From: a virus
Taxonomy: Duplodnaviria > Caudoviricetes
Reading direction: 5' to 3' (one strand)
Length of the DNA: 58,087 nucleotides
IMG/VR virus record: IMGVR_UViG_3300022912_000001
Coordinates: 1 to 58,087 of that record
Shown: positions 20,093-44,695 of the stretch, in pieces
How positions within the stretch are numbered: position 1 is the stretch's first letter
How the letters are laid out: each line of letters starts with the position of its first letter
Position numbers and translations under genes: made by a program
Notes under the pieces: generated by a model
What the model saw: the letters and a program-made list of their open reading frames with translations, nothing else
Told to the model about the DNA's origin: nothing
The model's database searches: none

Positions 20093-22501
20093 TTACATTG
20101 TTATTCCACTCCGAGCTAACCTCTCTAGGTCAGCATCAGATAATTCTTTTGTCTTGCCCTGCATTAAGGCTTCATCTATTCGGTCAACGCCAGTAAACTT
20201 TCCTGCATTGACTTCACGCCAATTCATAAGGTCTGTTTCCTTGACCCTCCTTGTGAACTCAATAAATTGCTTGACTTCAGCCATAGAGGTAATTTTGACT
20301 TCATGCATCTGGGCTTTAAACTTTTCATCTTTCCATAATTTCTCTGCCGCAACATCATCCGTTGAGGATGAAATGGTCTCCATTAGCAAATTGAATACTG
20401 GGTCGCCCTTACTCTTTGCAAGTTTATTATACTTAGTTTCAAGTGCCTTAGCATCTTCTCTTGTAATGGAACTATTTTTGTCAGCAACAAGGTTGTCAGT
20501 TTTTGTGGCTTCACGCTTTGATATTTCTTCTTTGCTAAGAGACTTTAATTCCTTAGTCTTTGCCATGCGCTCTTCTACAGTCTCATGCTTACCAAACTCG
20601 TCTATAAGATTTTCTTGACCTTCAAGATATTTGTTTTTGTCTGGCTTTTGAATGCCAGCATTAGCTGAACGTGTCTCTCTGTCCTGCTTACGCTTCAGGG
20701 TCTGTATTTGATTCTTCCAATGTTTCTCAATACGCTCTTCGCTATTCTTCTTCTGAATAGCACTCATATCAGGCTTTGGCCCAAATTCAGCAATAGCCTT
20801 ATCCATGCTAATTTTAAATTCAGCCTGCCCAGCTGGCTCTAGTTCTGCAAGTTTTGCCTTCTGAGATTTAGATTCTTTTGGAGTCCATGAGAAGTTTTTA
20901 ATTGCATCAAAAAGACTATCTCTCAATACCTTTGCTTCTGCCTCAGATGCAGTCTTGCCTGACATTATACCGCTTGCAATACTGCTTGCGCTACCAGGTT
21001 CAGATTCTTTTTCTCTTGCTACTATTGAATTAAAGGTAGCATCTGCTTTTTCTGCATCGCCATACTTTTCCTGCAAGGCTTTATACTCTTCATTCTCATC
21101 CAGCTTGGCTTTCACATCATCTGTTGATGCATTATAAGCCTCTAAAATCCTATTGTATTCAGCACGACCCTTTGCAAAGTCGGCAGATGATTCATCAGGT
21201 AATGCATTTGTTGCAGTATCTTTATCGCTATCGCCAGTGCCGTCACTATCTTTTCTTCTCTGTGCATCAATAGCATCATTAGTAGCCTTGCGTTCCTGTG
21301 CTTGCGCACTTGACTTTCCATTCATTGGATTCCAATAGTCCTCGATAACCTCAGTAAGTTTCTCAACTTCCCTTGGCTGAAGTCTGCTGTTATAGAATTT
21401 ATCTCTGTACTTATTGACTGCCGCACCAGGATTCTCAGCATTTAACATTTCAAGTGCCTGTTCTTTTGTGAAGTCTGGCTGATTCCCAAGCTCAGTATTA
21501 CGCATAACACCAAGAACCATATTTACAGTATTCGACTTGAAGTTGCCAACACTACCCTTCGCTGAACCAGTCTCGATAGTGTCTCTGGCAATCTTATTCC
21601 ATGTAATAGCACTTGAGTCTTTATCATCATCAGGAGGAAGTCTAAAACCACCTCTCCTGTTGTAGCCATGAGATTGAACAAGTGCACCTGAAAGGATGCC
21701 ATTATTTGCGTCTTCAGCTTTCTGCAACTCTGTAATATTCTCAAGCTGTAGTTTTGCCGTCTCTGCATCAGCTTTATTAATAGCAGCTTCATCCTTTGCA
21801 ATCCCAGCTTTCAAACCCTTAATTCCGAGAGCCGCTATTTCATCAGCATTCTCAAGTTTAAGTCTTGTAGCTTGAGCATCAGCGGCCGCTTCAGCATATC
21901 CTGGAGCATTCTTAGTAAAGTTATCTTTAATGTATTGAAGTTCGCGCTCATCAAAATCAGATACTTCAGCAAAAGCTTTAAATTCTTCGTCAGACATTGC
22001 AAAGTTCTTGTCTGTATCTGCCCCTGCAAACATTGCTTCTGTACCTCTATCAATAGCCGCAAACCTAGCTTCATTTGCATACAAGGCATCATTGGCTTGT
22101 GCTAAATCATCAATAAAGGCAATTAACTCATTCTTGCTTGCCTCATCATTTTTATAGCCCTGTTTTACAAGTTCAATATAACCCTTTGTATATTTATCGC
22201 CAGAGCCAGCATCTTCAATGGCGATACCCTTTAATTCCTGTGCTTCAAGTCTTTGCTTGTATGTATTGATTGACTCATCAATTTCTTTGAGTACAAGTTT
22301 ATGTGCAAACTGGTTTTCTTCATACTCACGGGCAGAATCAATTCTTGCTGTTTCATACTCCCTATTTAAAGCCGCTTGAGTTTCCTGTGAGGTAATTCTC
22401 TGGCTTTGCAGTTCAGCATTAGTAGGCTTAAACAACTGGCCAACCTGTGATATGCCACCTGTAATAGCTCTTATTAAGTCTGCATCACTTTGTCGTGCCA
22501 T
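20093..22501 (-). CDS. Putative ejection/internal virion protein (802 aa, coiled-coil rich)
   Basis: Position in the ejection cluster; Ala/Lys/Glu-rich helical composition. Confidence 0.55.
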   Translation of the reverse strand: MARQSDADLIRAITGGISQVGQLFKPTNAELQSQRITSQETQAALNREYETARIDSAREYEENQFAHKLVLKEIDESINTYKQRLEAQELKGIAIEDAGSGDKYTKGYIELVKQGYKNDEASKNELIAFIDDLAQANDALYANEARFAAIDRGTEAMFAGADTDKNFAMSDEEFKAFAEVSDFDERELQYIKDNFTKNAPGYAEAAADAQATRLKLENADEIAALGIKGLKAGIAKDEAAINKADAETAKLQLENITELQKAEDANNGILSGALVQSHGYNRRGGFRLPPDDDKDSSAITWNKIARDTIETGSAKGSVGNFKSNTVNMVLGVMRNTELGNQPDFTKEQALEMLNAENPGAAVNKYRDKFYNSRLQPREVEKLTEVIEDYWNPMNGKSSAQAQERKATNDAIDAQRRKDSDGTGDSDKDTATNALPDESSADFAKGRAEYNRILEAYNASTDDVKAKLDENEEYKALQEKYGDAEKADATFNSIVAREKESEPGSASSIASGIMSGKTASEAEAKVLRDSLFDAIKNFSWTPKESKSQKAKLAELEPAGQAEFKISMDKAIAEFGPKPDMSAIQKKNSEERIEKHWKNQIQTLKRKQDRETRSANAGIQKPDKNKYLEGQENLIDEFGKHETVEERMAKTKELKSLSKEEISKREATKTDNLVADKNSSITREDAKALETKYNKLAKSKGDPVFNLLMETISSSTDDVAAEKLWKDEKFKAQMHEVKITSMAEVKQFIEFTRRVKETDLMNWREVNAGKFTGVDRIDEALMQGKTKELSDADLERLARSGITM

Positions 22502-31029: not shown

Positions 31030-33582
31030 TTACCACGTTGCTATTGCGGCTCTTAGCCATGTATTTGTTGCAGAACATACATAGATGTAGTTAGCGTCCC
31101 AAGCAACTGTTCCTGCAACTCCTGTTGCTCCTGCGCTTGCTGGTGTTGAAGATGTTGGGAGAATTAGCTTATCTCCAATACTTACTCCACCTGTGCCACC
31201 ATTGAGAGTGAGCAAGTTATTTGATGTTGTTTGTATTGTTCTTGCACCAGTACCTTCAAAGGTACCATTAGATAGAATGCTCCACCGCTTTGTTGCAACG
31301 TCACCAGTTGGCTGTGTATAAAAGCTAATAACACCTGCATCATCTGCACCATCTAATGAGCATTCAACACTTGCAACATTATCAACACCACGGACAAACT
31401 GAATGTCACCAACAACACCACTACCTGTTACTGTTGCCGATGCAATTTCAAGCCTGCCACGATTTGTAGTTAAGCCTTGAATTGTGGCAACTGTGGCGGC
31501 GGTTCCTGCTGAAAGCAAATCTGCACTTCCACCAATTCCTACATCCCCACCAAAGGTTGAGCTTGCATCTGTACCATCAACATAAATGGCATTTACACCT
31601 GCATTTGAACCAACTGCGAAATCCATATCTTCAGATGTAGATGGATTGATATATATAAGCTTAGGTGATGACTGTTCATCAAAACTCATCATCGTATAAT
31701 TACCTACAACAATATCTAATTTATCAGCAGAAACTTCATGAAGGTATGTATTACTACCACCATCTAAATATAAATATTTTGTAGCTGGAATCCTTACATG
31801 ACCACCAAAGGTTGCGGCACCATCAGTATACAAATCTGTCCCATCAGAATGCCAGCCCTTGTAACTCAAGACTTCTGCACCAGTTTTGGTTCCGTGATTA
31901 TCATTACCAGAAACATCGTACCAGTATCCATCCGAAATCGAGTCTTGGGTGTATAGGGCTACTGCGCCCTTATAAATCACAGTAACATTATCAATTAACA
32001 TGACCTGCCCTGCGGCACCGTCAGCATTAAGGTACATGTCGGCATGGGAAGCAATAAAAGTAGCTTCGTAATATGTCTCTGTTCCCGTTGGGGTAAAGTG
32101 ACCGCCAATAGTGTAGTCTGTGCCATCTCCGATATAGGGAGAGAAACTTGCGCCAGTAAGTAATTTGGCTTGAAGCCGAACAGTTACCTCTTGACCAATA
32201 GTAAATACTCCCGCGATGCGAACCCCACTCCAAGAGCCACCCGTATCATAAGTGATTTTTCCAATTCCTGTACCTCCAGCGCCTGCCCAATCACCGACAA
32301 CACCCGTGAATACGCCACCCGAAAAATCAAGCCAGTTGCCTGTGTCTGTGTCAAAATCCGAATCGTCACCAGTTACTGTACTCGTCTGACTACCGTACTG
32401 CCACTTGAACGGGATATTACCTGAGATGAGGTCTTTCACCTCACTTGCTGAAAGGGCTGTGTTGTACGCCTCAACAAGTCCTATTGAGCCATTAAATAAA
32501 AGGTTGTTATCAACCCTTGCACCAATTTTGAGTGCGGAACCAGTGGTGATTGTTCTAAAAACAGATGAAATATCAACTGTTCCAACCGCCACGCCATCCA
32601 CATATCCAGTTGCATTCCCAGATCGGTCAAAAGTCACAACAATATCATATTCAGTCCCTGCTGTGAATACATCTGTTCCAATTACTGCACTTGCATCTGC
32701 GGTTGCATCATCAAAGCGAATCCATAGGTCATTAGTTCTTAATTCAATGCCATAGTCAACACCCGCAGCCCCTTTTGACACGAGATAAACCTGTGCATCT
32801 GTCACATTTTCAGGGGTATATTTTATGTGAAACGAGAAGTCTCCTGTACCAAAGTTTACGTTTGGGCCATCTGTTACAGTGATATAATCATCCACCCCAT
32901 CAAATCGGTACACCGTACCCTTCGACATCATATTGGTTGTGGTTTGGTCGTTTAGGAGGTAACCACCTGAGAAATTCAAGTCCAAGTTAGAATCAGATAC
33001 AAGTGCTCTGCTTGCTTCAACGATTCCTTCTGTTGTTGGTGCAAAAGAATCTATAGCAGACTGGACATTTGTATCGCTGAGATAACTTACAGCAGGATTA
33101 AATGTAATATCTTCTGCATCTGCAGCAGTAATATGAATCCACGCATCACCATCCCACATATACTGTTCAGCTTCACCTGGGTCTATTGTAATGGTTCTAG
33201 CACCGATAACATCAAAACTGTGACTAGAGCTATCATCGTTGACTACCCAGAATCTACTGCCTGGGTCTGTGTTCGTAGGAACACCAAAAGTTTGGTCTGC
33301 ACCTGCACCTGTAGTGAGTATGATAACACCACTATATGCATCGAGTACAGCAGTAACGAGTGCAGTATCTACAAGAGGGTCAGTCTGAGTATCCATTGGC
33401 AAGGTGCTATTGGCTGTCAGGACTTTATCCCAAGTAGCTACACCGCCTGTTACGTCAAGTAATGCGTAAAGCTCATTTGTGTCCTGCTTGAGCCAGAACT
33501 TACCTTCTCGCATTCTGTCGCCAGTTGTAGGCGCAGAAGTAAGGCTTAATTTAGCATTGTTGTTTGTGAGTTGACGAATCAT
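31030..33582 (-). CDS. Tail fibre/receptor-binding protein with LamG (concanavalin A-like) and CBM-like domains
   Basis: YRFDGVDDYI...VTFDR....YVDG...IGA...FNG.I..V..YN.ALS (LamG); C-terminal WDANYIYVC.ATNTW.R tail-fibre motif. Confidence 0.8.
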   Translation of the reverse strand: MIRQLTNNNAKLSLTSAPTTGDRMREGKFWLKQDTNELYALLDVTGGVATWDKVLTANSTLPMDTQTDPLVDTALVTAVLDAYSGVIILTTGAGADQTFGVPTNTDPGSRFWVVNDDSSSHSFDVIGARTITIDPGEAEQYMWDGDAWIHITAADAEDITFNPAVSYLSDTNVQSAIDSFAPTTEGIVEASRALVSDSNLDLNFSGGYLLNDQTTTNMMSKGTVYRFDGVDDYITVTDGPNVNFGTGDFSFHIKYTPENVTDAQVYLVSKGAAGVDYGIELRTNDLWIRFDDATADASAVIGTDVFTAGTEYDIVVTFDRSGNATGYVDGVAVGTVDISSVFRTITTGSALKIGARVDNNLLFNGSIGLVEAYNTALSASEVKDLISGNIPFKWQYGSQTSTVTGDDSDFDTDTGNWLDFSGGVFTGVVGDWAGAGGTGIGKITYDTGGSWSGVRIAGVFTIGQEVTVRLQAKLLTGASFSPYIGDGTDYTIGGHFTPTGTETYYEATFIASHADMYLNADGAAGQVMLIDNVTVIYKGAVALYTQDSISDGYWYDVSGNDNHGTKTGAEVLSYKGWHSDGTDLYTDGAATFGGHVRIPATKYLYLDGGSNTYLHEVSADKLDIVVGNYTMMSFDEQSSPKLIYINPSTSEDMDFAVGSNAGVNAIYVDGTDASSTFGGDVGIGGSADLLSAGTAATVATIQGLTTNRGRLEIASATVTGSGVVGDIQFVRGVDNVASVECSLDGADDAGVISFYTQPTGDVATKRWSILSNGTFEGTGARTIQTTSNNLLTLNGGTGGVSIGDKLILPTSSTPASAGATGVAGTVAWDANYIYVCSATNTWLRAAIATW

Positions 33583-34074: not shown

Positions 34075-34866
34075 TTATCTCATGAATGAGGTTGCTTTGT
34101 TTTTAGGTCTGGCTACATATGCGCCACGACCCTTGCGAATAACAACCGCCTGATTCGCTTTGTCTCTAAAATTTTTCATATAGTTCTCACCAAGGTTTAC
34201 ATCGCTGGACATAGCTATCTTTCCTTTGACAAATTCGATAATGGCGAGGCTAAGGTTTTCATCTGCATTAATATAGCTAAACTCATCAGGTGAAGCAATC
34301 TCAGTCACGTTCTCCCAAGTGTCGGTATCAGAGTAATCTACTGTAGTTAAGTCAGCCGAAGCCTGGTTTGCTAAAGCCTTATAGTAATTGTAGCGTTCAC
34401 CGCCTGAAGCGTGTCCATTTAGAACATATACAATTTCATCCTCTAAAACAGTCTCTGTGCCTGTGCTTGTATAGTCATAGTATGTAGCATCACCTTCAGG
34501 ATTATAGACAAACATCATGCCTAGTGAGGTATGCACAATAGCAATACCATCAGTCAAGGCTTCATCAGGTGCAATAAACTCACCTGTGTCATAACTCTTC
34601 TTGAGTATCTTTAGCTTCCTGCCCTGAATAGTCCACTGATAGTCCTCATAGTTTGTCAAGGTCTTACTTATCTCGATAGCACTATTCATGACAAAGCCCT
34701 CTGGCAAGTCATAAAGCTTTTGACCAACAACAAGGTCTATATAGTTAGTCTCAATATTCTCATGATACTTTGATTCAATTTCAAGGAATGCATCACGAAT
34801 ATTATCAATGACAACACCAGTCTCTCTTGAGCCAGCTTTCTCCATCACCTTCAATACCTGTATCAT
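34075..34866 (-). CDS. Putative head-tail adaptor/tail tubular protein
   Basis: DLV.GQ..YDLP motif; helical ends; position after the capsid genes. Confidence 0.55.
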   Translation of the reverse strand: MIQVLKVMEKAGSRETGVVIDNIRDAFLEIESKYHENIETNYIDLVVGQKLYDLPEGFVMNSAIEISKTLTNYEDYQWTIQGRKLKILKKSYDTGEFIAPDEALTDGIAIVHTSLGMMFVYNPEGDATYYDYTSTGTETVLEDEIVYVLNGHASGGERYNYYKALANQASADLTTVDYSDTDTWENVTEIASPDEFSYINADENLSLAIIEFVKGKIAMSSDVNLGENYMKNFRDKANQAVVIRKGRGAYVARPKNKATSFMR

Positions 34867-37556
34867 TGTGCCACCTGTCCTCTGGAGTTATTGATTACAG
34901 AATCTAATGATTGCCTAGCAACATTGAACATAGCCACACCGTTTTGTGAAAATTGCTGTGCAAGACCTAGAGAAGCATTAATTGAAACTTGCAATGTGCT
35001 TGCGGCATCAAGATATGATTTAGCTTTAGCAAGTTCGCCACCAAAGCGTGAATCCTCAGCCTGCACAAGTGCGCTAAATTCCTGTATCTTAGCACCCACT
35101 TCAGCACCATAAATTGCTGTATCTGCTCTAGCGGCTTCAATTTCCGCCTGCATATCTGAGGCTGAATCTTGCTGTTCTGATGCATAGACTTTAATTGTGA
35201 TGTCTGCATCTCCAGTTTTCTTAGCAAGCTCTGTGTTGTATTTCTGCAACTCAAAATTAACACGTTTAACATCAGTATCAACTTCGGATGTAAAGTCCTG
35301 CAATAGAGTTTGAACTTCCGCAGAATAGACTGCTATTTGATTCTGTGTGCTTTCTACTAATGCTTGAAGTGTTGCGCTGGCATCTGCCTGTTCTGCACCG
35401 TATGATTTCAGTAATACCTCTGAGTCTGCAATAGTTTTTTGCAATTCGGCACTATATTTTTGCAATTCAAATGATACACGCTGGACTTCAGCTTCAATAT
35501 CTGCTGAGTATTGTCCAAGTATAGACTGCACTTCTGCTGAGTAAACGGCAATTTCACTACTTGCAGTTTCTACCTCTGCTTGAAAGTCAGTTCCAGTATC
35601 TTTTTGCTCAGATGCATACGATTTCAGTAGGGCATCAACTCCAGCCACTTCTTTTTGCAGTTCAGCATTATAGCTCTGTATATCTGACTGAATGCGTTTT
35701 GCTTCTGCTTCAATATCTGACATAAATTTGTCAAGTATTGTTTTTGAATTGACGCCAAATATTGATATTTGCTGTTTGTCAGTTTCTATTTCAGCTTGCA
35801 GATTGGCAGCAGAATCCTTCTGTTCTGAAGAATAAGCTTTCAGGTTTGCATCAATATCTGCAATACCCTTCTGTAAGTCTGCATTATAGTTAGCAATCTC
35901 AGTCTGGACACGGGTTGATTCTGCTTCAACTTCCGTTTTGTACTGATTGAGTAGAGACTGAACTTCAGTTCCGTAAATAGAGATAGCGTTCTTGTCACCC
36001 TCTATACTGGCCTGCAACTCAGCACTTGCATCTTTTTGCTCTGCGCTATAATTGGCAAGTAAAGACTGTACTCTCTGGACTTCCTTTTGCACATCAGCCT
36101 GATACTTATTGATTTCAGCACCAACACGCTTTGTCTCACTATCAAGACTAACGCTAAACTTCTCAAGCAATGTTTTCTGCTTACCAAGTTCTGTGCTTGC
36201 ACGTTGAACCTCTTGAGCGGCTGACTGATTCGTTGACTGAACCATCTCTGGGTCTTCATCGTTTAGCCAGTAGCCTGCTGAGTGTGCTGTGACTGGCCCT
36301 TCTGCTGTTATACCAGTATCAATAAGAAGCTGTGCATTTGACATAGCATCTGCAAAGTTTGTAAAGTCAATAGCTGGCAATGCAGGGTTGGCAACAGTAG
36401 GCAATGATTCAGTTATTGACAATGAATCAGGTAACGTGTAACCAGTAGGGGCAGTATATGTACTACCTATAACTGGAGCAACAGGGAGTGAGGGTGGGTC
36501 TGGCATTGCAACTACAGGCAACGTCTTTGTCACGGTAATTGACTTGTCAAACGTATACCCACCTGGGGAAATATATGTGCTACCTACTGTTGGAGCATTA
36601 GGTAATGCGGGAGTAGGTGGAAATATAGGTTTGGGCAATGCTGAAGTTATTGTAATTTCAGCAGGCAATGTATAGTCACCAGGCTTAGTGTAGGAAATTG
36701 ATATAGTCGGGCTAACTGGTAACGTAGGTGAAGCAGGCATTGCGATTGTAGGCAATACAGTAGAAACTGTCAATGTTGCTGGTAATGAATAACCAACTGG
36801 GGATATATATTGAATAGATATTGTAGGTGCTGTAGGCATTGTTGGATATTCAGGTATAACTATAACAGGAAGCACAGTATCCATCTCTATACCTGAAGGC
36901 AATGCAGTAGTTGGCTTAGTATATGCTATTGCGATAGTTGGCACAGTAGGCAACACAGGGTCAACTACAGGGTCGTAGGTCGGCAAGGCAGCAACAAAGT
37001 CATCAATATATCCACCAGTACCATTGATACTTACAATATCTGCCTCAGCTTTGGCTGCATATATTGCGAATTGATGCATATAGTCAATATAGCAAGCATA
37101 GTTCATTCCAATGCTTTCATACTTGCCGAGAAAAGTTGTTGATATTGAAGATACAGTTACATCTTTAGCTATGGCACAAAGACCTAGCTCGTCATCTTCA
37201 GGGTCTGGCTTAATAAAAATTTTGTTGTTCTTAATGAATGCAAATGGGAATAGTTTAGTTGGCTTGTAGATACTGTCAATAGCAGTCTCAGTAGCATAGA
37301 AGCCATCAAGTGGCCTTATCTCTGCCTCTCTACCATTACGCTCTGCACCAAGTACGACTTCACCTGTAACGTCAATGCCAGTACCATCAGCAACACTTGC
37401 TGTCTGCCCACGAAAAGAAGTTTGTAGAATATCAAGAGGGAGTGATGCTAAGACAAACCCCTGTGCATCATCCAGAGCTTGAACAATTAAATCATCAGGC
37501 ACGTCACCAACAACGCTACCTGTTACTTGTCTAACCTTTGCTATTAAAGTAGCCAT
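34863..37556 (-). CDS. 897-aa virion protein with 5x39-aa Pro-rich and 5x72-aa helical repeats
   Basis: YTKP/YISP/YTKP/YISP/YTAP repeats and Y..EQ.D repeats visible in the translation. Confidence 0.8.
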   Translation of the reverse strand: MATLIAKVRQVTGSVVGDVPDDLIVQALDDAQGFVLASLPLDILQTSFRGQTASVADGTGIDVTGEVVLGAERNGREAEIRPLDGFYATETAIDSIYKPTKLFPFAFIKNNKIFIKPDPEDDELGLCAIAKDVTVSSISTTFLGKYESIGMNYACYIDYMHQFAIYAAKAEADIVSINGTGGYIDDFVAALPTYDPVVDPVLPTVPTIAIAYTKPTTALPSGIEMDTVLPVIVIPEYPTMPTAPTISIQYISPVGYSLPATLTVSTVLPTIAMPASPTLPVSPTISISYTKPGDYTLPAEITITSALPKPIFPPTPALPNAPTVGSTYISPGGYTFDKSITVTKTLPVVAMPDPPSLPVAPVIGSTYTAPTGYTLPDSLSITESLPTVANPALPAIDFTNFADAMSNAQLLIDTGITAEGPVTAHSAGYWLNDEDPEMVQSTNQSAAQEVQRASTELGKQKTLLEKFSVSLDSETKRVGAEINKYQADVQKEVQRVQSLLANYSAEQKDASAELQASIEGDKNAISIYGTEVQSLLNQYKTEVEAESTRVQTEIANYNADLQKGIADIDANLKAYSSEQKDSAANLQAEIETDKQQISIFGVNSKTILDKFMSDIEAEAKRIQSDIQSYNAELQKEVAGVDALLKSYASEQKDTGTDFQAEVETASSEIAVYSAEVQSILGQYSADIEAEVQRVSFELQKYSAELQKTIADSEVLLKSYGAEQADASATLQALVESTQNQIAVYSAEVQTLLQDFTSEVDTDVKRVNFELQKYNTELAKKTGDADITIKVYASEQQDSASDMQAEIEAARADTAIYGAEVGAKIQEFSALVQAEDSRFGGELAKAKSYLDAASTLQVSINASLGLAQQFSQNGVAMFNVARQSLDSVINNSRGQVAQ

Positions 37557-37637: not shown

Positions 37638-38069
37638 TTAAGCTATCGTCATGTGGTCATTATCATGTTCCATGCCATTGACATAGAAATAATCACCATC
37701 AAATTCGATTTCAGCCCAATCACCTGGAGCGGCCTTGCTTGCAATGAATGTTAATTCATCAACAGCAGTATCGGCAGATTCACCACCAGTAGCATCTGCT
37801 GAACATATCATTCCAAACATCAAGTCACCATCATCATCTGCAACACTAATGACAACATCTTTCGAGCTTGCAGTTTTCAAGATAAACTTGGCTTTCCAGC
37901 CAGGTTGTATCGTTGCAATCTCAGGAAGCTGTATGTCAAGTGCTGAAGTAGCGTTCTGGACAACCATGAAGATTTTACCAGCATCGCCAGCTAACAGTTG
38001 TTGGTCAGCGGATAGAGATTCTACTCGCTTATAATCCCAACCATGTGATACACCTAATTTTGTACTCAT
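37638..38069 (-). CDS. Putative capsid decoration/auxiliary protein (143 aa)
   Basis: Immediately after the MCP; beta-rich. Confidence 0.6.
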   Translation of the reverse strand: MSTKLGVSHGWDYKRVESLSADQQLLAGDAGKIFMVVQNATSALDIQLPEIATIQPGWKAKFILKTASSKDVVISVADDDGDLMFGMICSADATGGESADTAVDELTFIASKAAPGDWAEIEFDGDYFYVNGMEHDNDHMTIA

Positions 38070-38094: not shown

Positions 38095-39765
38095 CTATAG
38101 CCAAACAGCGTGTAGGTAAGGTTTGCTGTGATGGAAGCCAAGGTCAGCATCAATGATGTCAACTCTGCGACTCTCGCCAGTGTTAGCTTTCGTTTTCACA
38201 CCCTGATGAACATGCACATCATTGCTGATACCGTTACCGATAAGAGGTCTGATAGCAGTTCCATTCATGTCAATACCTAACAACTTGACATTTGTGCCGT
38301 CAAGGTGAATGTCACGAACAAGTTTCATTGTCGTGCCATCTACGTCAAGTACGCGAGTTGGAACACCAACAAGCTTCTTGAGGCTACCTGATGCAGAAAT
38401 GCGGTAGTTGTTTGATTCCTCTGCAACATTCTTCATGTATGAAGTTGTACCGATTCTACCGAACCAGTTCCATACCTGTGTGTTACAGTAGTAAACCTTA
38501 CTTGAACCCATAGTTGGACTGTAGCGTGGGTCATTGAAGGCTGACATATCTTCAAGGAAATCATCATAGGTCTTTGAGGTCAGGTCAAGAGCAAACTGGT
38601 TTCCGTTGTTAAGGATGTAGTTCACAATTCCTTCAGTATATGTAATACCGTCGGCATCTGTCATCTGTTCGCCAAAGTATGCTGTGCGAGCCATATCAAG
38701 GTTCATTTCCAACATCTTGTCATTCCACTCTTCAGACCAAGGATTCTGTTCAAATTTCAGCTCTGTACTCATGGCACGATATGACATGATTGCTTCTTTT
38801 TTGAAAATCTGTGTCAAGCCATTGTCAACACGATATTCCTTGTCACGATGTACTTCACCAAAGCCAGAAAGCTCATGATAAGCAGTACCTGAAACGTAGG
38901 TACGCATAGGCTCTAGCTTCTGAGCAATACTGTTTGCGGCTGTGCCGTGTGCAGTATCAGTCAGCAATGCTGTGGTTTGGTCAAAAGTTGAACTTGCACG
39001 ATATGAAGTCGGCTTCAATGCAGTTGCAGGCCGTTTCAGTAAAAGGACATTCACCATCAATGCTTCACCATAAGCACTACCTGTCATTGTGTATGTTGAC
39101 AACACACGCACAAGGGCATAGTCTTCAACAACTACTGCGCCAGCGGCTGTAGTAGGTGTAGTTGACGTGGTAGGAATACGGAGAATTTGATTTGGATGAA
39201 TGTAATTCGGTTTCGTTCCTGCTTCACCGAGAGTAATACCATCAGATACAGCCTGACCAATACGATTCTCTTTTTGACCGATGATAGTGAAATCACCCAT
39301 CATCAAAAGGCTGAATGTTGAATCAGCGGCTGGCAATTCTGCACTTGCATACATATTTGCATTGCCATTGACAGTCGCGGCTAGGAACAGCAAGTAACGT
39401 GTTGTGTCCCAAGCTGTTGTTGCTGTTACAGTTTGGTCTGCGGCGGACACTTCACCTGCGGCTGACATGCCCATAACGTAACCAAAGCGTTTCAGAGCGG
39501 CAGACTGCTTCTTCGATGTAACCTTGAAGTTAGGGTCTGTCGTTGGAACTTTACGCATCATGTTCAAGTGATGCAGGTATGGGTCACGTAAGAAGGAAAT
39601 CTTGGTATATGAGCTACCAAAATCATACGAGCGTCTTAAATCACCAGTGTCAGGGTTTGATGCCCTGGTTACCTCTGCAACATCCGACTGGTTCAGATTT
39701 GTTGCAGGGTGCATAACGGTTAAAGGCTCATCGCCTCCAGTAATTCTACTATAATCATCTGCCAT
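38095..39765 (-). CDS. Major capsid protein (556 aa)
   Basis: Follows portal and scaffold; GDLRR.YDF...DP.....K.PT.DP.FK, N.TQIFK, D......FGE, TEGI motifs of HK97-fold DUF5309-like capsids. Confidence 0.8.
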   Translation of the reverse strand: MADDYSRITGGDEPLTVMHPATNLNQSDVAEVTRASNPDTGDLRRSYDFGSSYTKISFLRDPYLHHLNMMRKVPTTDPNFKVTSKKQSAALKRFGYVMGMSAAGEVSAADQTVTATTAWDTTRYLLFLAATVNGNANMYASAELPAADSTFSLLMMGDFTIIGQKENRIGQAVSDGITLGEAGTKPNYIHPNQILRIPTTSTTPTTAAGAVVVEDYALVRVLSTYTMTGSAYGEALMVNVLLLKRPATALKPTSYRASSTFDQTTALLTDTAHGTAANSIAQKLEPMRTYVSGTAYHELSGFGEVHRDKEYRVDNGLTQIFKKEAIMSYRAMSTELKFEQNPWSEEWNDKMLEMNLDMARTAYFGEQMTDADGITYTEGIVNYILNNGNQFALDLTSKTYDDFLEDMSAFNDPRYSPTMGSSKVYYCNTQVWNWFGRIGTTSYMKNVAEESNNYRISASGSLKKLVGVPTRVLDVDGTTMKLVRDIHLDGTNVKLLGIDMNGTAIRPLIGNGISNDVHVHQGVKTKANTGESRRVDIIDADLGFHHSKPYLHAVWL

Positions 39766-40634: not shown

Positions 40635-42908
40635 TCAACTTGAGCTAGGTTTTGTTGGTTTTGTAGCTAATTTAGCTTCCTTCTCAATTTGAGCCATATT
40701 AGCAATATGCTTATCAAGTGCAAGTTGTGCTTTATTCTCAAATTGCTGTAATGCAGTCTCTGTCTCAAGTACACCCTTGCGAGTTTCCATCTCTCCAGAC
40801 ATTGAATTAATCTTAATTCTTGACTGGATGACTTGACGTTCAAGTGTCTCATTGTCGCCTTTAAGCTTCTTGAGTTCATCATTGAGGCTTTCGATTTGAT
40901 TCTGCTGTTGAGCTTGGAGACTCTTCTCTTTAATCACAGCTTCTTTGTCCTCAATATCTGTGTACTTAATCATTGTAGTATCTGGAATCAATCCATCTTT
41001 GAAATACTCATAGTATTTACTCTCTCGCATCTCACGATTAGTTGGGAATGTGGAGCCTGCAACAACACGAATGTCAAAGTTTGCAGTTTCGTAGTCAAGG
41101 TATTTACCAGAGATTTCACCATTCTTGTCATACAGTGGAACATTAAGCTCGTAGTCCTCAAAGCCGTTTTCATTGACAATGCGGAAGATTTTGTGAGCCT
41201 TATATACATGTTGTGATATGTCAACAAAGACATTACCAATGTGAGTTAATGCAGGCTCGAAAACGCTATCAATCCACGCCTTCAGCTTACGAGTACCAAA
41301 CTCATCATTGGCCATTAGTGAGCGAAAGGGAATGCGGTCTGACACATCAGCCATACCCATCATTCCAGAGTTTACGCCTGCTGTATATTCCAGTTCGTTT
41401 TTGCCCTCATTCATAATGGTGTAAAAGGCGTTGTTCAAAGGCAAAGGCATGATGCGTTCAGGCTTGCTCTCAGGGCCAGAGTAAACATACTCAAGAATAC
41501 CGCCTGGCATAGTCGAGTTCTCTGTCCACACATCCATATCAATCACAGAACCTGAGTTCACTAACCACTGGCCATTAGAGGAAAGCGTAGCATTGTGAAT
41601 CATTAATTGATGAGCCTTGTTGATTTCTTCCTGCTTACCCATAAGATACTTCATAGAAGAGATAGGGTAAATGTTTCCTGTATATACATAAGGAATTGGA
41701 ACGAGGGGATAGTGCTTGTAGTCGAGGTCAATTTCATATAGCATTGTATCGTCACCAACAGAACACTCAAGCTTAACCCTCATATCCCAAAAAAGAATCT
41801 CTTCAAGAATATCTTCTGGGTTTACAACACCCTTCTTGATAGCATCTTCATATTCACTTTTGCGAATTACAACACTTTTTATCTGGGCTTTCAGTTGCTC
41901 AACAGCACTGGCAAAAGCCTCTGTTTGTGCGTCAAGCTGTTGCTCAAGTCGCCTGCGCTCTTTGGACATTTCAAGTTCCATACGAGCAGGAAGCATTTCC
42001 TGTGCATCAACCATTTTCTGAAATTGAGCCTCTTTCTCTTGTAGGCTAACGTCAACTTCCATTGCCAGTTCCTCAAGAGACACCCTGCCCTCCATCTGCA
42101 TCTCCCTGACTGCATCAGGTGAAGGAATATCACGAACCATTAGGTTGACAAATTCAACAGGAACACGCCTGTATGTTTCGATGTATGGAATTACTTCCTC
42201 ATACTGACCATCATAGCCATTAATTGCATCTGCATTAACCTGACTATTTTTAGTTTCCTTCGTTCCATCGCCACCAGTATCAGTAAGAGCAGCACCTGAA
42301 GCGGCCCATATTTCCTTGTGAAATTGTGGCAGTTTATTCGATATGCTCGTCTTTGACATATTGCGAGCTACCTGAATCCAAGCGGCATCTCTAGCAAACA
42401 TATCACGACAAGTTGGGTCTTCATATACATCTTCAGGATTGATAGTCCCAAACATGACTTCACCCATTCCCCTGTCTGCATCCTTGTCAACATATAAATA
42501 AGGAACACCTTTGGACTTCGTAAGAATGTCTAAGGCGACCTGACCCATATGCATCTTGCCATTTGATTGCTCAAAGGAATAGTCCATTAGTCTAGCGGCT
42601 ACACCTGCAATCATGGAGTCATCACCTCCGCGACCAGTAGCAGACCAACGTGGGTTGTTAGCAGTTATAAAATACTTTTGGGTATCAATAACAGGAGTAG
42701 ACCTATTAGACGTAAAAGTTGGCATATTTGCATCTTCTAAATCCTCCAATTCATCTTCATCAATTTGCTCATCTTCATAAAAGCGTTCACCCTTATGTAA
42801 GTCTCCGAGCCATTTGTTCCTTCGCCCATTATTAGCAAACTCAATGAGTTGCCTATTGCTGTGAGCAGTAGCTACCTTTGCATGTGGTACTGACTGTTGT
42901 AAAGCCAT
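40635..42908 (-). CDS. Portal protein (P22-like)
   Basis: Follows TerL; FY...Q, N...P, VYEDP, YPLVP, QEEINK motifs; C-terminal coiled coil; likely start overlaps the TerL stop. Confidence 0.85.
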   Translation of the reverse strand: MALQQSVPHAKVATAHSNRQLIEFANNGRRNKWLGDLHKGERFYEDEQIDEDELEDLEDANMPTFTSNRSTPVIDTQKYFITANNPRWSATGRGGDDSMIAGVAARLMDYSFEQSNGKMHMGQVALDILTKSKGVPYLYVDKDADRGMGEVMFGTINPEDVYEDPTCRDMFARDAAWIQVARNMSKTSISNKLPQFHKEIWAASGAALTDTGGDGTKETKNSQVNADAINGYDGQYEEVIPYIETYRRVPVEFVNLMVRDIPSPDAVREMQMEGRVSLEELAMEVDVSLQEKEAQFQKMVDAQEMLPARMELEMSKERRRLEQQLDAQTEAFASAVEQLKAQIKSVVIRKSEYEDAIKKGVVNPEDILEEILFWDMRVKLECSVGDDTMLYEIDLDYKHYPLVPIPYVYTGNIYPISSMKYLMGKQEEINKAHQLMIHNATLSSNGQWLVNSGSVIDMDVWTENSTMPGGILEYVYSGPESKPERIMPLPLNNAFYTIMNEGKNELEYTAGVNSGMMGMADVSDRIPFRSLMANDEFGTRKLKAWIDSVFEPALTHIGNVFVDISQHVYKAHKIFRIVNENGFEDYELNVPLYDKNGEISGKYLDYETANFDIRVVAGSTFPTNREMRESKYYEYFKDGLIPDTTMIKYTDIEDKEAVIKEKSLQAQQQNQIESLNDELKKLKGDNETLERQVIQSRIKINSMSGEMETRKGVLETETALQQFENKAQLALDKHIANMAQIEKEAKLATKPTKPSSS

Positions 42909-44695
42909 TACATAGTTCTCCAACTTCTTTTGCGCTTCGGTTTATTAATGTGGTTGTTAAGACGTTGTACCCTAACAAGGTGGTTGTTTGTATTATTCCC
43001 AACACCCTGCTTAGTAACTCTCTTCGGTCGTGGCGGATAAGAGCCAACGCAAGCGTAGAAGAACCCTTCTATCGTATCATCATGCGCCATGAATGGCCCA
43101 AATTTCCAAGTCTCATCTATTAATTCATAATGATTCTTCCTGTAGAATACCATCCCGTTGGAAAAGTCAGTTGATAAATGAGAGTAAATTCTATTGTGTT
43201 TGTTCGTTCCCCCTGGAGCGTGTGGTGCATATATAGCATAGTTAGCATTAAGCTTCTGCTTCAAGTCATTGAGCGCACTAAAGACACTACGATTCATCGC
43301 AACATCCTCTATGCGACCACCCTGTATATTGTAGCGTTTAGCAAAGTCAACAAGGTAGTCAACAACACCCATCTTGCCTATCAGTTCATAGTCAACTATC
43401 TCACCATCGACTATTTTGGGTTCTCGTCTTCCAGCAGTAGGTATGGAGCGGTGACGTTCATATTCAAGTACATACTTCCGCCCCTGCGCGTCAACAGCCA
43501 CCGCCATAATAACTGAATAGTCAGAACTATTGTTATCAATATCAGTAGCAGGGTCACAGCCAACGAATACATTAACAGGAAACATGTCACCATTAAAGTG
43601 TAAATAACTTTGACCTTCGATAAACATGTACTGTCCATCATGGAATCTAATGTGCTCCTTAGTCCACTTAGCATCTTCACTTGACTGTACCTCCAACTCA
43701 TATTCTTGATTGTAGCCAGATACACCCCTTGGCCCTTTTTGATAGACAGCTTTTATCTGGTCTAGTACGGCTCTAGGTCTGTGAGAGTGCCATAGGACAC
43801 CTCCAGGCATTGTAGGCTGTGTAGACTTGTAGGTAATCACCTTCCAGGGGAACGACTCTTCAGTTCCCTCTTTTGTCACCGTAGCCCAGTCATCAAGAAG
43901 ATTCTGAGCCATAGCATCAAAGTGGACAGGTGTACCTGTAAAAATCATTCTTCGTCTTGGGAAGTTCTTTTCAATTCCAGGCAGAAGTCCATTGAGCAAG
44001 CTGTCTTTAAGACTATCTCTCGACTTGGCAGTTTTGGTGTTTTCTTCGTTTTCGGCATCATCAATAAATGCCCTAGATATTCTTTGCGCACCCTTCTCAA
44101 TGTCAGGAAGTGTTTGTCCGCGAGCGGAGCGTAAAGTGGAGAATGATGAGAGCCTACAGCCATTTGAAAGGACAAGTTCTTCCTTGTTCCAAGTTTTTCC
44201 TTTCCAATTTTGACAGTAACGCTTGAACTTCTGATTCCCTTCGAGGTGCATAGCAATGTATTCAACATTTGTAAATGAGTCCTTCTGTGATTTAGCTACC
44301 CAAACATAGAATAACTTTTCGTCATAGTCACGCCAGCCCCAGTCAAAAGCAAGTTTGGCAAAGAAGAAGTCATGTAAGATACTACCTTTGACAAGGGTTG
44401 TTTTTGCGCTTTCTCTCGGAAGGATTACAGCTAGAGGTTTCTCACTATCTGAATCCAATTCGTCACATATTTCGTAGTGAAAGAATGGTGTCTCTGACTT
44501 CATAAAGTCACCTGCAAGGAACATCTTGCCAAACACTACTGTTTTCCTAAAAGCCATATAGAGCATTCGCTCTTCCTTAGAGGGATTACCTTTAAGGATA
44601 TTGAATGTTTTTATCTTGCCAGTCTTTAACTCCTCTTTGTACTCCTTCGGAGTTACAATAGGCTTGACTTGCGCTATAGGGCTTAGTGTTTCCAT
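42908..44695 (-). CDS. terL: Terminase large subunit
   Basis: PRESAKTT Walker A, RGQ, IDDAE Walker B, GTP.H.D, QEY, GCDPA...DYS nuclease, HDDTIE. Confidence 0.92.
   Translation of the reverse strand: METLSPIAQVKPIVTPKEYKEELKTGKIKTFNILKGNPSKEERMLYMAFRKTVVFGKMFLAGDFMKSETPFFHYEICDELDSDSEKPLAVILPRESAKTTLVKGSILHDFFFAKLAFDWGWRDYDEKLFYVWVAKSQKDSFTNVEYIAMHLEGNQKFKRYCQNWKGKTWNKEELVLSNGCRLSSFSTLRSARGQTLPDIEKGAQRISRAFIDDAENEENTKTAKSRDSLKDSLLNGLLPGIEKNFPRRRMIFTGTPVHFDAMAQNLLDDWATVTKEGTEESFPWKVITYKSTQPTMPGGVLWHSHRPRAVLDQIKAVYQKGPRGVSGYNQEYELEVQSSEDAKWTKEHIRFHDGQYMFIEGQSYLHFNGDMFPVNVFVGCDPATDIDNNSSDYSVIMAVAVDAQGRKYVLEYERHRSIPTAGRREPKIVDGEIVDYELIGKMGVVDYLVDFAKRYNIQGGRIEDVAMNRSVFSALNDLKQKLNANYAIYAPHAPGGTNKHNRIYSHLSTDFSNGMVFYRKNHYELIDETWKFGPFMAHDDTIEGFFYACVGSYPPRPKRVTKQGVGNNTNNHLVRVQRLNNHINKPKRKRSWRTM

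What the first reader, a model, noticed from the sequence alone, without database searches (positions are those of the whole stretch)
35090..36990. Matched 5x39-aa proline repeats and 5x72-aa helical repeats: possible polyproline/alpha-helix hybrid stalk
Seen: five Pro-rich units with ~39-aa period (~36390-36990), a short turn region, then five helical units with 72-aa period (Y..EQ.D, ~35090-36100). Using standard rises, 39 residues of PPII/extended chain (~3 A each) and 72 residues of alpha-helix (1.5 A each) both span about 11 nm. Established: streptococcal antigen I/II builds a stalk from 39-aa P repeats wound around long helical A repeats. Inference: a ~55-nm out-and-back fibre inserted in a neck/adaptor-type protein, with length set by paired repeat number.
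Basis: partly seen in the sequence, partly recalled or inferred. Interest (0 to 1): 0.7.

Follow-up and report, generated by a model that had tools for sequence, protein, structure and literature searches.

The report
Phage neck adaptor with paired-arm stalk
The neck (head-to-tail adaptor) protein of an uncultured short-tailed phage carries a long stalk in which five proline-rich repeats seem to run alongside five helical repeats, and its relatives keep the two arms matched in physical length, a design so far known from streptococcal adhesins.

Summary
One 897-aa gene (34863-37556, minus strand) holds 5 x 39-aa Pro-rich units plus a partial sixth, a conserved turn module (YWLNDEDPEM), then a partial and 5 full 72-aa helical units. 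Both periods lie far above shuffles.

The N-terminal 186 aa is an SU10/T7-type adaptor or crAss ring-protein fold. The gene follows TerL-portal-scaffold-capsid.

Close relatives have 2+2 and 3+3 units against 5+5 here, with indels of exactly 117 aa and 216 aa. In 160 family members the helical arm grows by about 0.83 residues per helical residue of arm 1, but 2.11 per non-helical residue (R2 0.92). Sister-pair contrasts confirm this. The ratio matches helix rise (1.5 A) against extended or PPII chain (about 3.2 A).

Direct contact has only weak model support: ipSAE 0.33 against 0.00 for controls. AlphaFold2 leaves the Pro arm unmodelled and kinks the helical arm near its middle. The stalk could therefore be about 55-70 nm, or folded to half that.

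New variant of a known kind: an adaptor with a length-matched out-and-back stalk, analogous but not homologous to AgI/II.

The parts
34863..37556 (-). Whole gene, 897 aa (P0001): adaptor with inserted two-arm stalk
   Evidence: ORF list and translation. It is the only copy in the 58,087-bp virus record.
36999..37556 (-). N-domain, aa 1-186: helix bundle plus beta-sandwich, adaptor or ring-protein fold
   Evidence: AF2 pLDDT is about 80-95. Foldseek hits: 7wmp_m, 8jov_G, 8jov_2 and 7qoj_D, TM by target 0.39-0.51. PF24175 matches 9 of 61 relatives. ESM Atlas scores 0.94 to SU10-adaptor clusters.
36414..36998 (-). Arm 1: five 39-aa Pro-rich units P1-P5 (aa 187-381)
   Evidence: Lag-39 autocorrelation is 1.83 against a shuffle maximum of 0.47. 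Unit HMM finds 5 hits in register. 28 of 40 Pro share one phase modulo 3.
36366..36413 (-). Partial sixth Pro-rich unit (aa 382-397) leading into the turn module
   Evidence: Row alignment of the units.
36237..36365 (-). Turn (tip) module, aa 398-440: helix A, loop, then the conserved motif YWLNDEDPEM (aa 429-438, nt 36243-36272)
   Evidence: E434, D435 and E437 are conserved in at least 90% of 83 aligned relatives. A tip HMM gave a hit in 201 of 209 family sequences, and 193 of them passed the score and coverage cut-off used afterwards. AF2 helix 399-412 has pLDDT about 90.
36021..36236 (-). Arm 2 start: partial helical unit H0 (aa 441-512)
   Evidence: Unit HMM hit at 461-512, profile positions 21-72. 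It is the orthologue of the first helical unit of P0002/P0003, 49-54% identity.
34941..36020 (-). Arm 2: five 72-aa helical units H1-H5 (aa 513-872)
   Evidence: Lag-72 autocorrelation is 1.90 against a shuffle maximum of -0.03. Unit HMM finds 5 full hits. AF2 calls helix. Hydrophobic period is 3.60 residues.
34866..34940 (-). C-terminal tail (aa 873-897). Together with H5 it forms the conserved C-terminal segment that should return to the N-domain.
   Evidence: It is conserved with P0002-P0004. AF2 pLDDT is 84-92 for aa 810-890.
38095..39765 (-). Context: major capsid protein (SU10_MCP), two genes upstream in transcription order
   Evidence: Pfam PF17236, E 3.9e-10. A capsid homologue lies upstream of the family gene in 45 of 75 related loci.
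40635..42923 (-). Context: P22-like portal protein
   Evidence: Pfam PF16510, E 2.7e-39. PHROG 156.

Best explanation
The gene encodes the head-to-tail adaptor of a 58-kb short-tailed phage. In solved relatives this protein forms a ring of twelve on the portal.

Between its ring-forming N-domain and its conserved C-terminal segment it carries an out-and-back stalk:
- Arm 1 (five 39-aa Pro-rich, extended units) leads away from the ring.
- A conserved helix-loop-helix module with the acidic-aromatic motif YWLNDEDPEM makes the turn.
- Arm 2 (five and a half 72-aa units of straight amphipathic helix with an aromatic stripe) leads back.

The arms run antiparallel and side by side, one Pro unit per helical unit. 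Both termini must sit at the ring, so the arms must have equal physical length. Copy number on both arms therefore sets stalk length.

Shown: the repeats, the adaptor identity, the matched copy numbers and the family-wide scaling.
Inferred: physical pairing of the arms, the straight versus folded form, twelve stalks per virion, and the role.

Most likely role: a neck fibre or boom that carries the conserved tip module (a docking or sensing site) out to an adjustable distance.
For: 1. Adaptor identity.
- Foldseek with the AF2 models puts the N-domain on 8jov_G and 8jov_2 (GP4 portal-tail), 7wmp_m (KHP30 tail) and 7qoj_D (crAss001 tail barrel). Probabilities are 0.96-1.00, E 5e-3 to 0.09, TM by target 0.39-0.51.
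- Pfam SU10_adaptor matches 9 of 61 relatives, best E 4.2e-8.
- ESM Atlas: score 0.94, and structure TM 0.61-0.73 to viral clusters, some carrying PF24175.
- Gene order is TerL-portal-scaffold-MCP-143aa-this gene.
- A capsid homologue lies upstream in 45 of 75 related loci. In stalk-less L037 a homologue of the window's 844-aa gene follows directly.

2. Matched copy number.
- P0002 and P0003 (564 aa) are 72% identical to the window protein. Their loci L002/L003/L063 have neighbour genes 83-96% identical to the window's.
- They lack exactly 117 aa (3 x 39) of arm 1 and 144 + 72 aa (3 x 72) of arm 2.
- P0004 lacks 78 aa (3 + 17 + 58, i.e. 2 x 39) of arm 1 in that alignment, while holding 5 extra residues there, and 144 aa (2 x 72) of arm 2.

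3. The extra units sit next to the turn on both arms.
- The relatives' units are orthologous to P1 (67-72%) and P2 (51%), and to H0, H3/H4 and H5 (75%).
- This fits antiparallel facing.

4. Family-wide scaling, 164 distinct sequences with 4 globular-insert outliers dropped.
- Helical arm 1: n=34, slope 0.90 +/- 0.02, r 0.991.
- Pro-rich arm 1: n=66, slope 1.71 +/- 0.09.
- Joint fit: arm2 = 45 + 0.83 x helical + 2.11 x non-helical residues, R2 0.92.
- The fit is robust to thresholds: bH 0.74-0.97, bN 1.84-2.58.
- A one-slope model reaches R2 0.755. The best of 1000 permutations of the composition labels reached 0.783.
- 2.11 x 1.5 A gives 3.2 A per residue, the rise of extended or PPII chain.

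5. Sister-pair contrasts on an N-domain tree.
- 40 of 47 pairs were informative. bH 0.72 +/- 0.14, bN 2.00 +/- 0.14, R2 0.86.
- Sign agreement was 36 of 40.
- Example: P0146 has arms 172/363 with a Pro-rich arm 1. Its sister L047 has arms 299/303 with a helical arm 1.

6. Geometry of the units.
- The hydrophobic period of arm 2 is 3.60 residues: power 157, against a shuffle mean of 40 and maximum of 118 in 500. Power at 3.5 is 9.
- 27 aromatic residues lie in one stripe (Rayleigh R 0.79). 72 residues is 20 turns.
- Pro shows a period of 3: 0 of 2000 shuffles reach the observed power. 39 is 13 x 3.

7. Complex model.
- Helix aa 436-590 against Pro units aa 304-397 gave ipSAE 0.29, 0.33 and 0.34. 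The best of 3 controls was 0.00.
- Partner pLDDT was 50-55, against 32 when the helix was replaced. Runs agreed in at least 61% of contacts. Verdict: 'weak support'.
- That mark was reached by 58 of 80 solved complexes and 2 of 110 mismatched pairs. Scores of 0.60 or below were seen in only 7 of those 80 solved complexes and in both mismatches that passed.
Against: - AlphaFold2 gives the Pro arm pLDDT about 32-48 in P0001 and below 50 for aa 232-265 in P0002, with no regular structure.
- Both AF2 models break the helical arm near its midpoint: 651-656 of 436-896, and 422-425 of 318-563. The P0002 model resembles helical-hairpin bundles of ClyA-type proteins in Foldseek. The models therefore prefer arm 2 folded on itself.
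- No coordinates were available, so no contact could be inspected.
- The complex score is a weak pass, and the tool says such passes are more often wrong than right unless the guess was likely beforehand.
- 72/39 implies 2.77 A per Pro-arm residue, below ideal PPII.
- Only 10 of 67 Pro-rich relatives show a global 3-residue Pro phase.
- The mirror test of unit similarity matrices was not significant: 22 of 120 permutations did as well.
- The window protein itself has no Pfam adaptor hit.
- Only three copy-number classes exist in the close lineage.
- Some database proteins may be truncated. The largest residuals were P0142, P0132 and P0021.
Confidence: 0.7

Rival explanations
1. Same paired arms, but the stalk is folded in half. 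Each arm turns back at its middle, giving a four-stranded bundle of two helices plus two extended strands. This would be about 30-35 nm long. The conserved motif module would stay at the ring, as in stalk-less relatives.
For: - AF2 breaks arm 2 near its midpoint in both models.
- The P0002 model matches long helical-hairpin bundles in Foldseek.
- The motif is conserved even in members without arms (L049, L025, L037). That is easiest to explain if its partner sits at the ring.
- The scaling law is the same for this topology.
Against: - No turn is encoded at a fixed place in the repeats. The AF2 breaks fall at different positions within the unit: QKDTGT against SASS (read).
- Units would change partners when copy number changes between phages whose neighbouring genes are 83-96% identical.
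- Monomer AF2 often folds long lone helices back on themselves (general knowledge). pLDDT at the breaks is about 49-58.
- Stalk-less members already look like a short helix-loop-helix hairpin that only needs lengthening.
Confidence: 0.2
2. The arms do not pair. The Pro-rich array is a flexible tether or disordered spacer. The helical array forms coiled coils between subunits. Matched numbers then arise from shared ancestry or from a general tendency of both arrays to expand.
For: - The Pro arm has low AF2 confidence.
- The complex score is only weak.
- Only three copy-number classes exist in the close lineage.
Against: - Exact unit-for-unit indels.
- Two different slopes depending on arm-1 composition. 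Permuted composition labels never reach the observed R2 (0 of 1000).
- Sister-pair contrasts agree in sign in 36 of 40 pairs. This includes pairs where arm 1 shortens while arm 2 lengthens on a switch from helical to Pro-rich.
- The hydrophobic period is 3.60, not the 3.5 of canonical coiled coils.
Confidence: 0.07
3. The protein is not the adaptor. It is a tail fibre or head fibre whose N-domain merely resembles adaptors.
For: - The window protein has no Pfam adaptor hit.
- Foldseek E-values are modest, 5e-3 to 0.09.
- One relative had a weak PHROG 'tail fiber' hit on its helical part.
Against: - PF24175 matches 9 of 61 relatives down to E 4.2e-8.
- Three independent solved neck assemblies were hit on the same 165-220 columns.
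- ESM Atlas agrees.
- Stalk-less members of 236-280 aa have adaptor size and position.
- None of the other eight proteins of this block that were scanned shows an adaptor family, except a weak second hit on the portal itself (phrog_332, E 3.7e-5), and p263 is unrelated to the family profile.
Confidence: 0.03

Closest known systems
Streptococcal antigen I/II adhesins (SpaP, SspB, BspA/C; PDB 3IOX A3VP1)
   Same: Both have two separate repeat arrays, one helical and one Pro-rich, flanking a distal module. In AgI/II these pair antiparallel into a long stalk. Pro side chains pack on aromatic residues of the helix (review PMC3707005, passages read; PMC6586375, passages read). Here the helix carries an aromatic stripe. 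The family-wide ratio is about 2.1 helical residues per extended residue. That is close to 82:39, the AgI/II unit sizes as I recall them; they appear in no passage I read.
   Different: There is no homology. Only weak, composition-level hits were found: 3iox_A at E 0.024 to the family profile, and Pfam Strep_SA_rep in 4 of 61 relatives, best E 0.0017. The order is reversed, Pro arm first and helix second. The distal module is a 43-aa helix-loop motif, not a lectin-like V domain. There is no signal peptide or LPXTG. The host is a phage adaptor. The helical unit is 72 aa. The Pro unit is part PxxP, part beta-like.
SU10 gp11 / T7 gp11-type head-to-tail adaptors (Pfam PF24175); crAss001 ring proteins
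   Same: The N-domain fold is a helix bundle plus a beta domain. The gene sits after the capsid gene. Dodecameric ring formation is expected. Sources: PMC9509320 and PMC10172136, passages read; Foldseek, Pfam and Atlas results.
   Different: The PDB chains hit are 195-226 aa and the PF24175 profile has 194 positions, so known adaptors are roughly 200 aa with no long insert. This one has about 650 aa of stalk between the bundle and the C-terminal segment.
T4 fibritin (wac) whiskers and phi29 head or neck fibres (recalled, not tested here)
   Same: All are repeat-built fibres attached at the neck or head. Their length is set by the number of segments.
   Different: Those are parallel trimeric coiled coils or beta fibres encoded by separate genes. 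They are not an out-and-back two-arm insert in the adaptor itself.

Membership tests
SU10/T7-type head-to-tail adaptor (Pfam PF24175 SU10_adaptor) | Significant profile match to the family model | tested here: inconclusive
   The window protein has no hit at E <= 0.01. 9 of 61 aligned relatives match, best E 4.2e-8. P0045 matches at E 0.0096. ESM Atlas feature score is 0.94 to a cluster in which 53% of members carry PF24175.
SU10/T7-type head-to-tail adaptor (Pfam PF24175 SU10_adaptor) | Helix-bundle plus beta-domain fold like solved adaptor or ring proteins | tested here: met
   AF2 N-domain pLDDT is about 80-95. Foldseek hits 8jov_G, 8jov_2, 7wmp_m and 7qoj_D with probability 0.96-1.00 and TM by target 0.39-0.51, from two independent models. 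E-values are modest, 5e-3 to 0.09.
SU10/T7-type head-to-tail adaptor (Pfam PF24175 SU10_adaptor) | Gene placed between the capsid gene and the nozzle or tail genes | tested here: met
   Window order is TerL, portal, scaffold, MCP, 143 aa, this gene. A capsid homologue lies upstream in 45 of 75 loci.
SU10/T7-type head-to-tail adaptor (Pfam PF24175 SU10_adaptor) | Dodecameric ring bound to the portal clip through a C-terminal embracing segment | not testable with these tools
   This needs a virion structure. The 12-mer exceeds the limits of the complex tool.
Antigen I/II adhesins | Sequence homology of the A and P repeats | tested here: not met
   The window protein has no Strep_SA_rep hit. 4 of 61 relatives have weak hits, best E 0.0017, below the curated cut-off. 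3iox_A matches the family profile at E 0.024 on the helix only.
Antigen I/II adhesins | Layout N - A repeats - V domain - P repeats - C domain - LPXTG anchor | tested here: not met
   The order here is adaptor domain - P - 43-aa turn - helix - short tail. There is no V domain or anchor motif in the sequence. The AgI/II layout is taken from PMC6586375.
Antigen I/II adhesins | Alpha-helix and PPII strand in direct antiparallel contact | tested here: inconclusive
   ipSAE 0.33 against a best control of 0.00, 'weak support'. AF2 leaves the Pro arm unmodelled. The scaling law supports equal arm length.
Canonical heptad coiled coil | Hydrophobic period of 3.5 residues | tested here: not met
   Power at 3.50 is 9.1, against 157 at 3.60.

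The most novel reading that the evidence does not exclude
A very large, unnamed family of podophage adaptors (1,907 cluster representatives at E <= 1e-3) has evolved a modular, length-programmable neck fibre. It is a hairpin stalk whose two arms may be helix/helix or extended-Pro/helix. Selection holds the arms to equal physical length, so the sequences obey a two-slope 'rise-per-residue' law. The Pro/helix version would be an independent, viral invention of the alpha/PPII hybrid fibre otherwise known only from AgI/II adhesins. Paired copy number would act as a ruler that sets how far the conserved tip module is held from the neck.
Probability: 0.45. Interest if true: 0.8.

Novelty: new variant of a known kind. 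Interest (0 to 1): 0.72.

Why it matters
Adaptors are usually seen as compact ring proteins of about 200 aa. Here, and in hundreds of relatives, the adaptor itself carries a stalk of up to several hundred residues per arm.

The family gives a rare case where a structural rule can be read straight from sequence lengths: the two arms have equal physical length, at 1.5 A against about 3.2 A per residue. That makes fibre length predictable from a genome.

The rule could be tested directly:
- Delete one unit on one arm.
- Measure the isolated stalk.
- Image virions.

If the Pro/helix pairing holds, it is a second, independent origin of the AgI/II-type hybrid fibre. It would also be a natural scaffold of programmable length. 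It further flags an unnamed family, abundant among uncultured phages, whose conserved tip motif (YWLNDEDPEM) must have a conserved partner.

Tried and rejected
- tblastn against named phages found only Pseudomonas phage 8P, at 20.8% identity over the repeat and coiled part. I treated this as composition-level and did not use it. The capsid protein found nothing there.
- PHROGs gave no family for the protein or nine relatives beyond weak coiled-coil hits.
- A PDB profile search with the whole-family alignment was dominated by apolipoproteins, reflecting amphipathic-helix composition. It gave 8jov_2 only at E 0.1. The profile of stalk-less members found nothing meaningful.
- A search for more copy-number classes in the close lineage found only the 564-aa form again. 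I tried an N-domain-only word search and a metagenome scan.
- A unit HMM counts repeats only in the close lineage. For the wider family I used arm lengths instead of unit counts.
- The mirror (Mantel-like) test of P-unit against H-unit similarity matrices gave r 0.40 for the antiparallel register. 22 of 120 permutations did as well, so it is not significant.
- A global 3-residue Pro phase holds in the window protein but in only 10 of 67 Pro-rich relatives. I do not claim it as a family feature.
- The downstream 263-aa protein is not a paralogue of the family: hhalign probability 0.8%.
- A nested second copy of the tip helices occurs in helical-type members (L038, L030, L053). Scores were 42-53 against cross-controls of 23-29. 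This is suggestive only.
- Literature: no paper in the library holds 'polyproline II' + podophage + adaptor + coiled-coil together; none of the 8 papers listed of the 43 that held three of the four terms does. '8JOV' finds no relevant paper. Supplements were closed and not consulted. The chain names of 8jov, 7wmp and 7qoj were therefore not verified beyond the entry titles and 'Virion associated protein'.
- AF2 coordinates are not exposed, so arm-arm contacts in the monomer models could not be measured.
Full report
**What is there.** The flagged region lies inside one ORF, window 34863-37556 on the minus strand, 897 aa (P0001). Read in rows of 39 and 72 residues, the protein shows the following layout:
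- an N-terminal domain, aa 1-186
- five Pro-rich units of 39 aa, aa 187-381, plus a partial sixth, aa 382-397
- a 43-aa turn module, aa 398-440, ending in YWLNDEDPEM
- a partial helical unit H0, aa 441-512, then five full 72-aa units H1-H5, aa 513-872
- a short tail

Both periods are far above chance. At lag 39 the mean BLOSUM62 score is 1.83 (37% identity), against a highest value of 0.47 over all lags in 500 shuffles. At lag 72 the score is 1.90 (38% identity), against -0.03. Tandem Repeats Finder sees no such arrays at the DNA level, so the units are old.

**Context.** The window is a complete virus record of 58,087 bp with direct terminal repeats. On the minus strand the order is:
- large terminase (PHROG 38)
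- P22-like portal
- a 257-aa protein
- an SU10-type major capsid protein
- a 143-aa protein
- this gene
- a 263-aa protein whose start overlaps this gene's stop
- a 129-aa protein
- an 850-aa LamG protein
- further tail-side genes, up to ORFs of 2,782 and 1,183 aa

This is the gene order of a short-tailed phage, with our gene in the adaptor position.

**What the N-domain is.** AlphaFold2 models aa 1-190 with pLDDT about 80-95, as three helices, a beta-sandwich and a long helix. The evidence for an adaptor fold is:
- Foldseek against the PDB puts this part on a KHP30 tail chain (7wmp_m), on GP4 portal-tail chains (8jov_G, and from the second model also 8jov_2), and on a chain of the crAss001 tail barrel (7qoj_D). 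Probabilities are 0.96-1.00, TM by target 0.39-0.51, E 5e-3 to 0.09.
- The crAss001 ring proteins are described as three conserved helices plus a beta-sandwich, forming dodecameric rings on the portal (PMC10172136, passages read).
- SU10 gp11 is a dodecameric adaptor with a helix bundle, a fibre dock and an embracing loop (PMC9509320, passages read).
- Pfam SU10_adaptor does not hit the window protein. It does hit 9 of 61 aligned relatives, best E 4.2e-8.
- ESM Atlas places aa 1-190 next to SU10-adaptor clusters: feature score 0.94, structure TM 0.61-0.73.

I therefore file the N-domain as an adaptor or ring-protein fold. Membership of PF24175 is shown for relatives and inferred for this copy.

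**The family.** A profile search of 1.84 billion cluster representatives finds 1,907 proteins at E <= 1e-3 and 288 at E <= 1e-30. A scan of viral contigs gave 61 loci. All members share three elements:
- the N-domain
- a helix-loop module with the motif [S..YWLNDED.EM]; E434, D435 and E437 are conserved in at least 90% of 83 aligned sequences
- a C-terminal helical segment

Members of 236-280 aa (L049, L025, L037) have nothing else. Longer members carry two inserts:
- Arm 1 lies between the N-domain and the motif module. It can be Pro/Thr-rich and extended, helical, or mixed.
- Arm 2 lies between the motif and the C-terminal segment. It is helical.

A capsid homologue lies upstream in 45 of 75 loci. 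In stalk-less L037 a homologue of the window's 844-aa gene follows directly.

- P0002 and P0003 (564 aa) are 72% identical to the window protein overall and 85-91% in the N-domain. In their loci the neighbouring genes are 83-96% identical to the window's.
- They lack 112 + 5 = 117 aa (3 x 39) of arm 1, and 144 + 72 = 216 aa (3 x 72) of arm 2.
- P0004 (693 aa) lacks 78 aa (3 + 17 + 58, i.e. 2 x 39) of arm 1 in that alignment, while holding 5 extra residues there, and 144 aa (2 x 72) of arm 2.
- The copy-number classes are therefore 2+2, 3+3 and 5+5. I found no further class.
- Unit-by-unit comparison shows that the 2+2 proteins keep the ring-proximal units. Their units match P1 (67-72%) and P2 (51%), and on the other arm H0, H3/H4 (49-54%) and H5 (75%).
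- The window's extra units, P3-P5 and H1, H2 plus one of H3/H4, therefore sit next to the turn on both arms. That is where they would face each other in an antiparallel stalk.

**Family-wide scaling.** For the wider family I measured arm lengths instead of unit counts.
- Arm 1 runs from the end of the conserved N-domain helix (FP.E.EYLVVLYAAIK.L..L block) to the motif. Arm 2 runs from the motif to the C-terminus.
- Of 209 sequences, 193 passed the tip HMM threshold. 183 of those started with Met and aligned at the anchor. 164 were distinct. Four with a globular insert in arm 1 were dropped (L042, L044, L045, P0005).
- Where arm 1 is helical (Pro below 3%, n=34), arm 2 against arm 1 has slope 0.90 +/- 0.02 and r 0.991.
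- Where arm 1 is Pro-rich (Pro at least 10%, n=66), the slope is 1.71 +/- 0.09.
- A joint fit gives arm2 = 45 + 0.83(+/-0.06) x helical residues + 2.11(+/-0.05) x non-helical residues, R2 0.92, n=160.
- The result holds over nine window and threshold settings: bH 0.74-0.97, bN 1.84-2.58.
- It beats a one-slope model (R2 0.755). It also beats all 1000 permutations of the composition labels, whose best R2 was 0.783.

To remove shared ancestry I took the 47 sister pairs of an N-domain tree.
- On the 40 informative pairs, bH is 0.72 +/- 0.14 and bN is 2.00 +/- 0.14, R2 0.86.
- The sign of the predicted change agrees in 36 of 40 pairs.
- Some sisters switched arm type. P0146 has a Pro-rich arm 1 of 172 aa and an arm 2 of 363 aa. 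L047 has a helical arm 1 of 299 aa and an arm 2 of 303 aa.

Two helical residues per extended residue is the ratio of rises: 1.5 A against about 3.2 A. The arms are therefore kept equal in physical length, not in residue number. Independent arrays would not give this.

**Unit geometry in the window protein.**
- The hydrophobic moment of arm 2 peaks sharply at 3.60 residues per turn. Power is 157, against a shuffle mean of 40 and a maximum of 118 in 500. Power at 3.5 is 9 and at 3.67 is 0.4.
- 27 aromatic residues fall in one stripe (Rayleigh R 0.79).
- 72 residues is exactly 20 turns, so every unit presents the same face. This describes a straight helix with one docking stripe, not a heptad coiled coil.
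- In arm 1, 28 of 40 prolines share one phase modulo 3. None of 2000 shuffles reached the observed power. 39 is 13 x 3.
- Each unit is PxxPxxPxxP followed by a beta-like stretch. 'Polyproline' therefore fits only part of it, and 72/39 implies 2.77 A per residue.
- In AgI/II the Pro side chains pack on aromatic residues of the helix (PMC3707005, passages read). The stripe here would allow the same.

**Models.**
- AlphaFold2 on P0001 (83-row alignment) gives mean pLDDT 67.7. The Pro arm is below 50 for most of aa 223-377. Arm 2 is helix 436-650 and 657-896 at pLDDT 50-70, rising to about 90 at both ends.
- On P0002 (61 rows) it gives mean pLDDT 75.1. The Pro arm is below 50 at 232-265. The helices are 318-421 and 426-563.
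- Both models break arm 2 near its midpoint. The P0002 model resembles long helical-hairpin bundles.
- A two-chain test with controls (ESMFold2) used helix aa 436-590 against Pro units aa 304-397. It gave ipSAE 0.29, 0.33 and 0.34, against 0.00 for all three controls.
- In that test, partner pLDDT was 50-55, against 32 when the helix was replaced. Runs agreed in at least 61% of contacts.
- The tool's verdict was 'weak support'. It warns that passes at 0.60 or below were reached by only 7 of the 80 solved complexes and by both of the mismatched pairs that passed. The support is weak.

**How it most likely works.** In solved relatives both ends of an adaptor belong to the ring on the portal. An insert between them must therefore leave and return. 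Stalk-less members already have a short helix-loop-helix there, with the conserved motif in the loop. Longer members look like that hairpin lengthened on both strands.

I conclude with confidence 0.7 that arm 1 and arm 2 run antiparallel side by side, one 39-aa unit per 72-aa unit. On this reading, paired copy number sets the length:
- about 54 nm for the five unit pairs
- up to about 69 nm for the whole 461-residue helix, if the stalk is straight
- about half that if it is folded at its middle, as the AF2 models suggest (rival, confidence 0.2)

The role is inferred. I read it as a neck fibre or boom that holds the conserved acidic-aromatic tip away from the ring. The motif is invariant while arm type and length vary freely. 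That makes a conserved partner more likely than a variable host receptor; the partner could be a phage fibre or a common ligand.

**Comparison and novelty.** The stalk works like the AgI/II stalk but is not a member of that family. The order is reversed, there is no V domain or anchor, and only composition-level sequence hits were found. The protein is an adaptor with an insert. I found no paper describing such an insert: the search gave no paper with all four terms, and none of the listed adaptor structures mention one in the passages I read. I rate it a new variant of a known kind.

**Limits.**
- Only three copy-number classes exist in the close lineage.
- Some database proteins may be truncated.
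- The helix mask is crude.
- There are no coordinates and no experiment.
- Supplements were not consulted.

Noticed in passing
window 1-58087: The window is a whole virus record of 58,087 bp with direct terminal repeats, rated 100% complete by CheckV. The stalk gene occurs once.
   Followed up: yes
window 34863-34866: The stop codon of the adaptor gene overlaps the start codon of the next gene (263 aa, 34075-34866) in an ATGA arrangement. This suggests coupled translation. The 263-aa protein has no Pfam or PHROG family and is unrelated to the adaptor family profile.
   Followed up: partly
window 37638-38069 (-): A 143-aa protein sits directly after the capsid gene and has no family hit. A 143-residue trimeric cement protein sits near the capsid gene in phage A1002 by gene number: gp49, against MCP gp50 and adaptor gp47 (PMC13730344, passages read). 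Homologues lie between the capsid gene and the adaptor gene in 8 of 75 related loci.
   Followed up: no
window 8175-22501 (-): Three very large ORFs lie in a row: 802, 2,782 and 1,183 aa. None has a Pfam family apart from a weak SAP-domain hit at aa 545-577 of the 2,782-aa protein. They may be ejected or internal virion proteins.
   Followed up: no
window 31030-33582 (-): An 850-aa protein carries a LamG/concanavalin-like domain (PF13385, E 4e-17). It is probably a fibre or receptor-binding protein. It lies three genes downstream of the adaptor.
   Followed up: no
P0005, P0094, L041-L046: Some family members carry a roughly 250-300-aa segment before the motif module instead of a stalk arm. In P0005 Pfam places a LamG-like domain at aa 110-233 (E 8.5e-6, just under the curated cut-off), partly ahead of my N-domain anchor at aa 206; the others were not scanned. 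Their arm 2 is short, 72-116 aa. They are the only clear outliers of the scaling law.
   Followed up: partly
L038:4984-6651, L030:2529-4139, L053: In helical-type members a second copy of the pre-motif helix (V.DAL..AQNLID) lies in arm 1. A second copy of the post-motif helix (AT....A..E.QRAQ) lies in arm 2. The order is nested, A'..A-loop-B..B'. Scores were 42-53 against cross-controls of 23-29. This hints that the hairpin grew by matched additions on both strands.
   Followed up: partly
family alignment A4: Pfam Strep_SA_rep, the Ala-rich repeat of AgI/II adhesins, weakly hits 4 of 61 relatives (best E 0.0017). Apolipoprotein A1/A4/E hits 26 of 61. Both reflect long amphipathic helices rather than homology.
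   Followed up: partly
L001 (MT152150.1 22459-24351): The only named-phage match, a 'structural protein' of Pseudomonas phage 8P, aligns at 20.8% identity over the repeat part only. It lies among large structural genes. I did not settle whether it belongs to the family.
   Followed up: no
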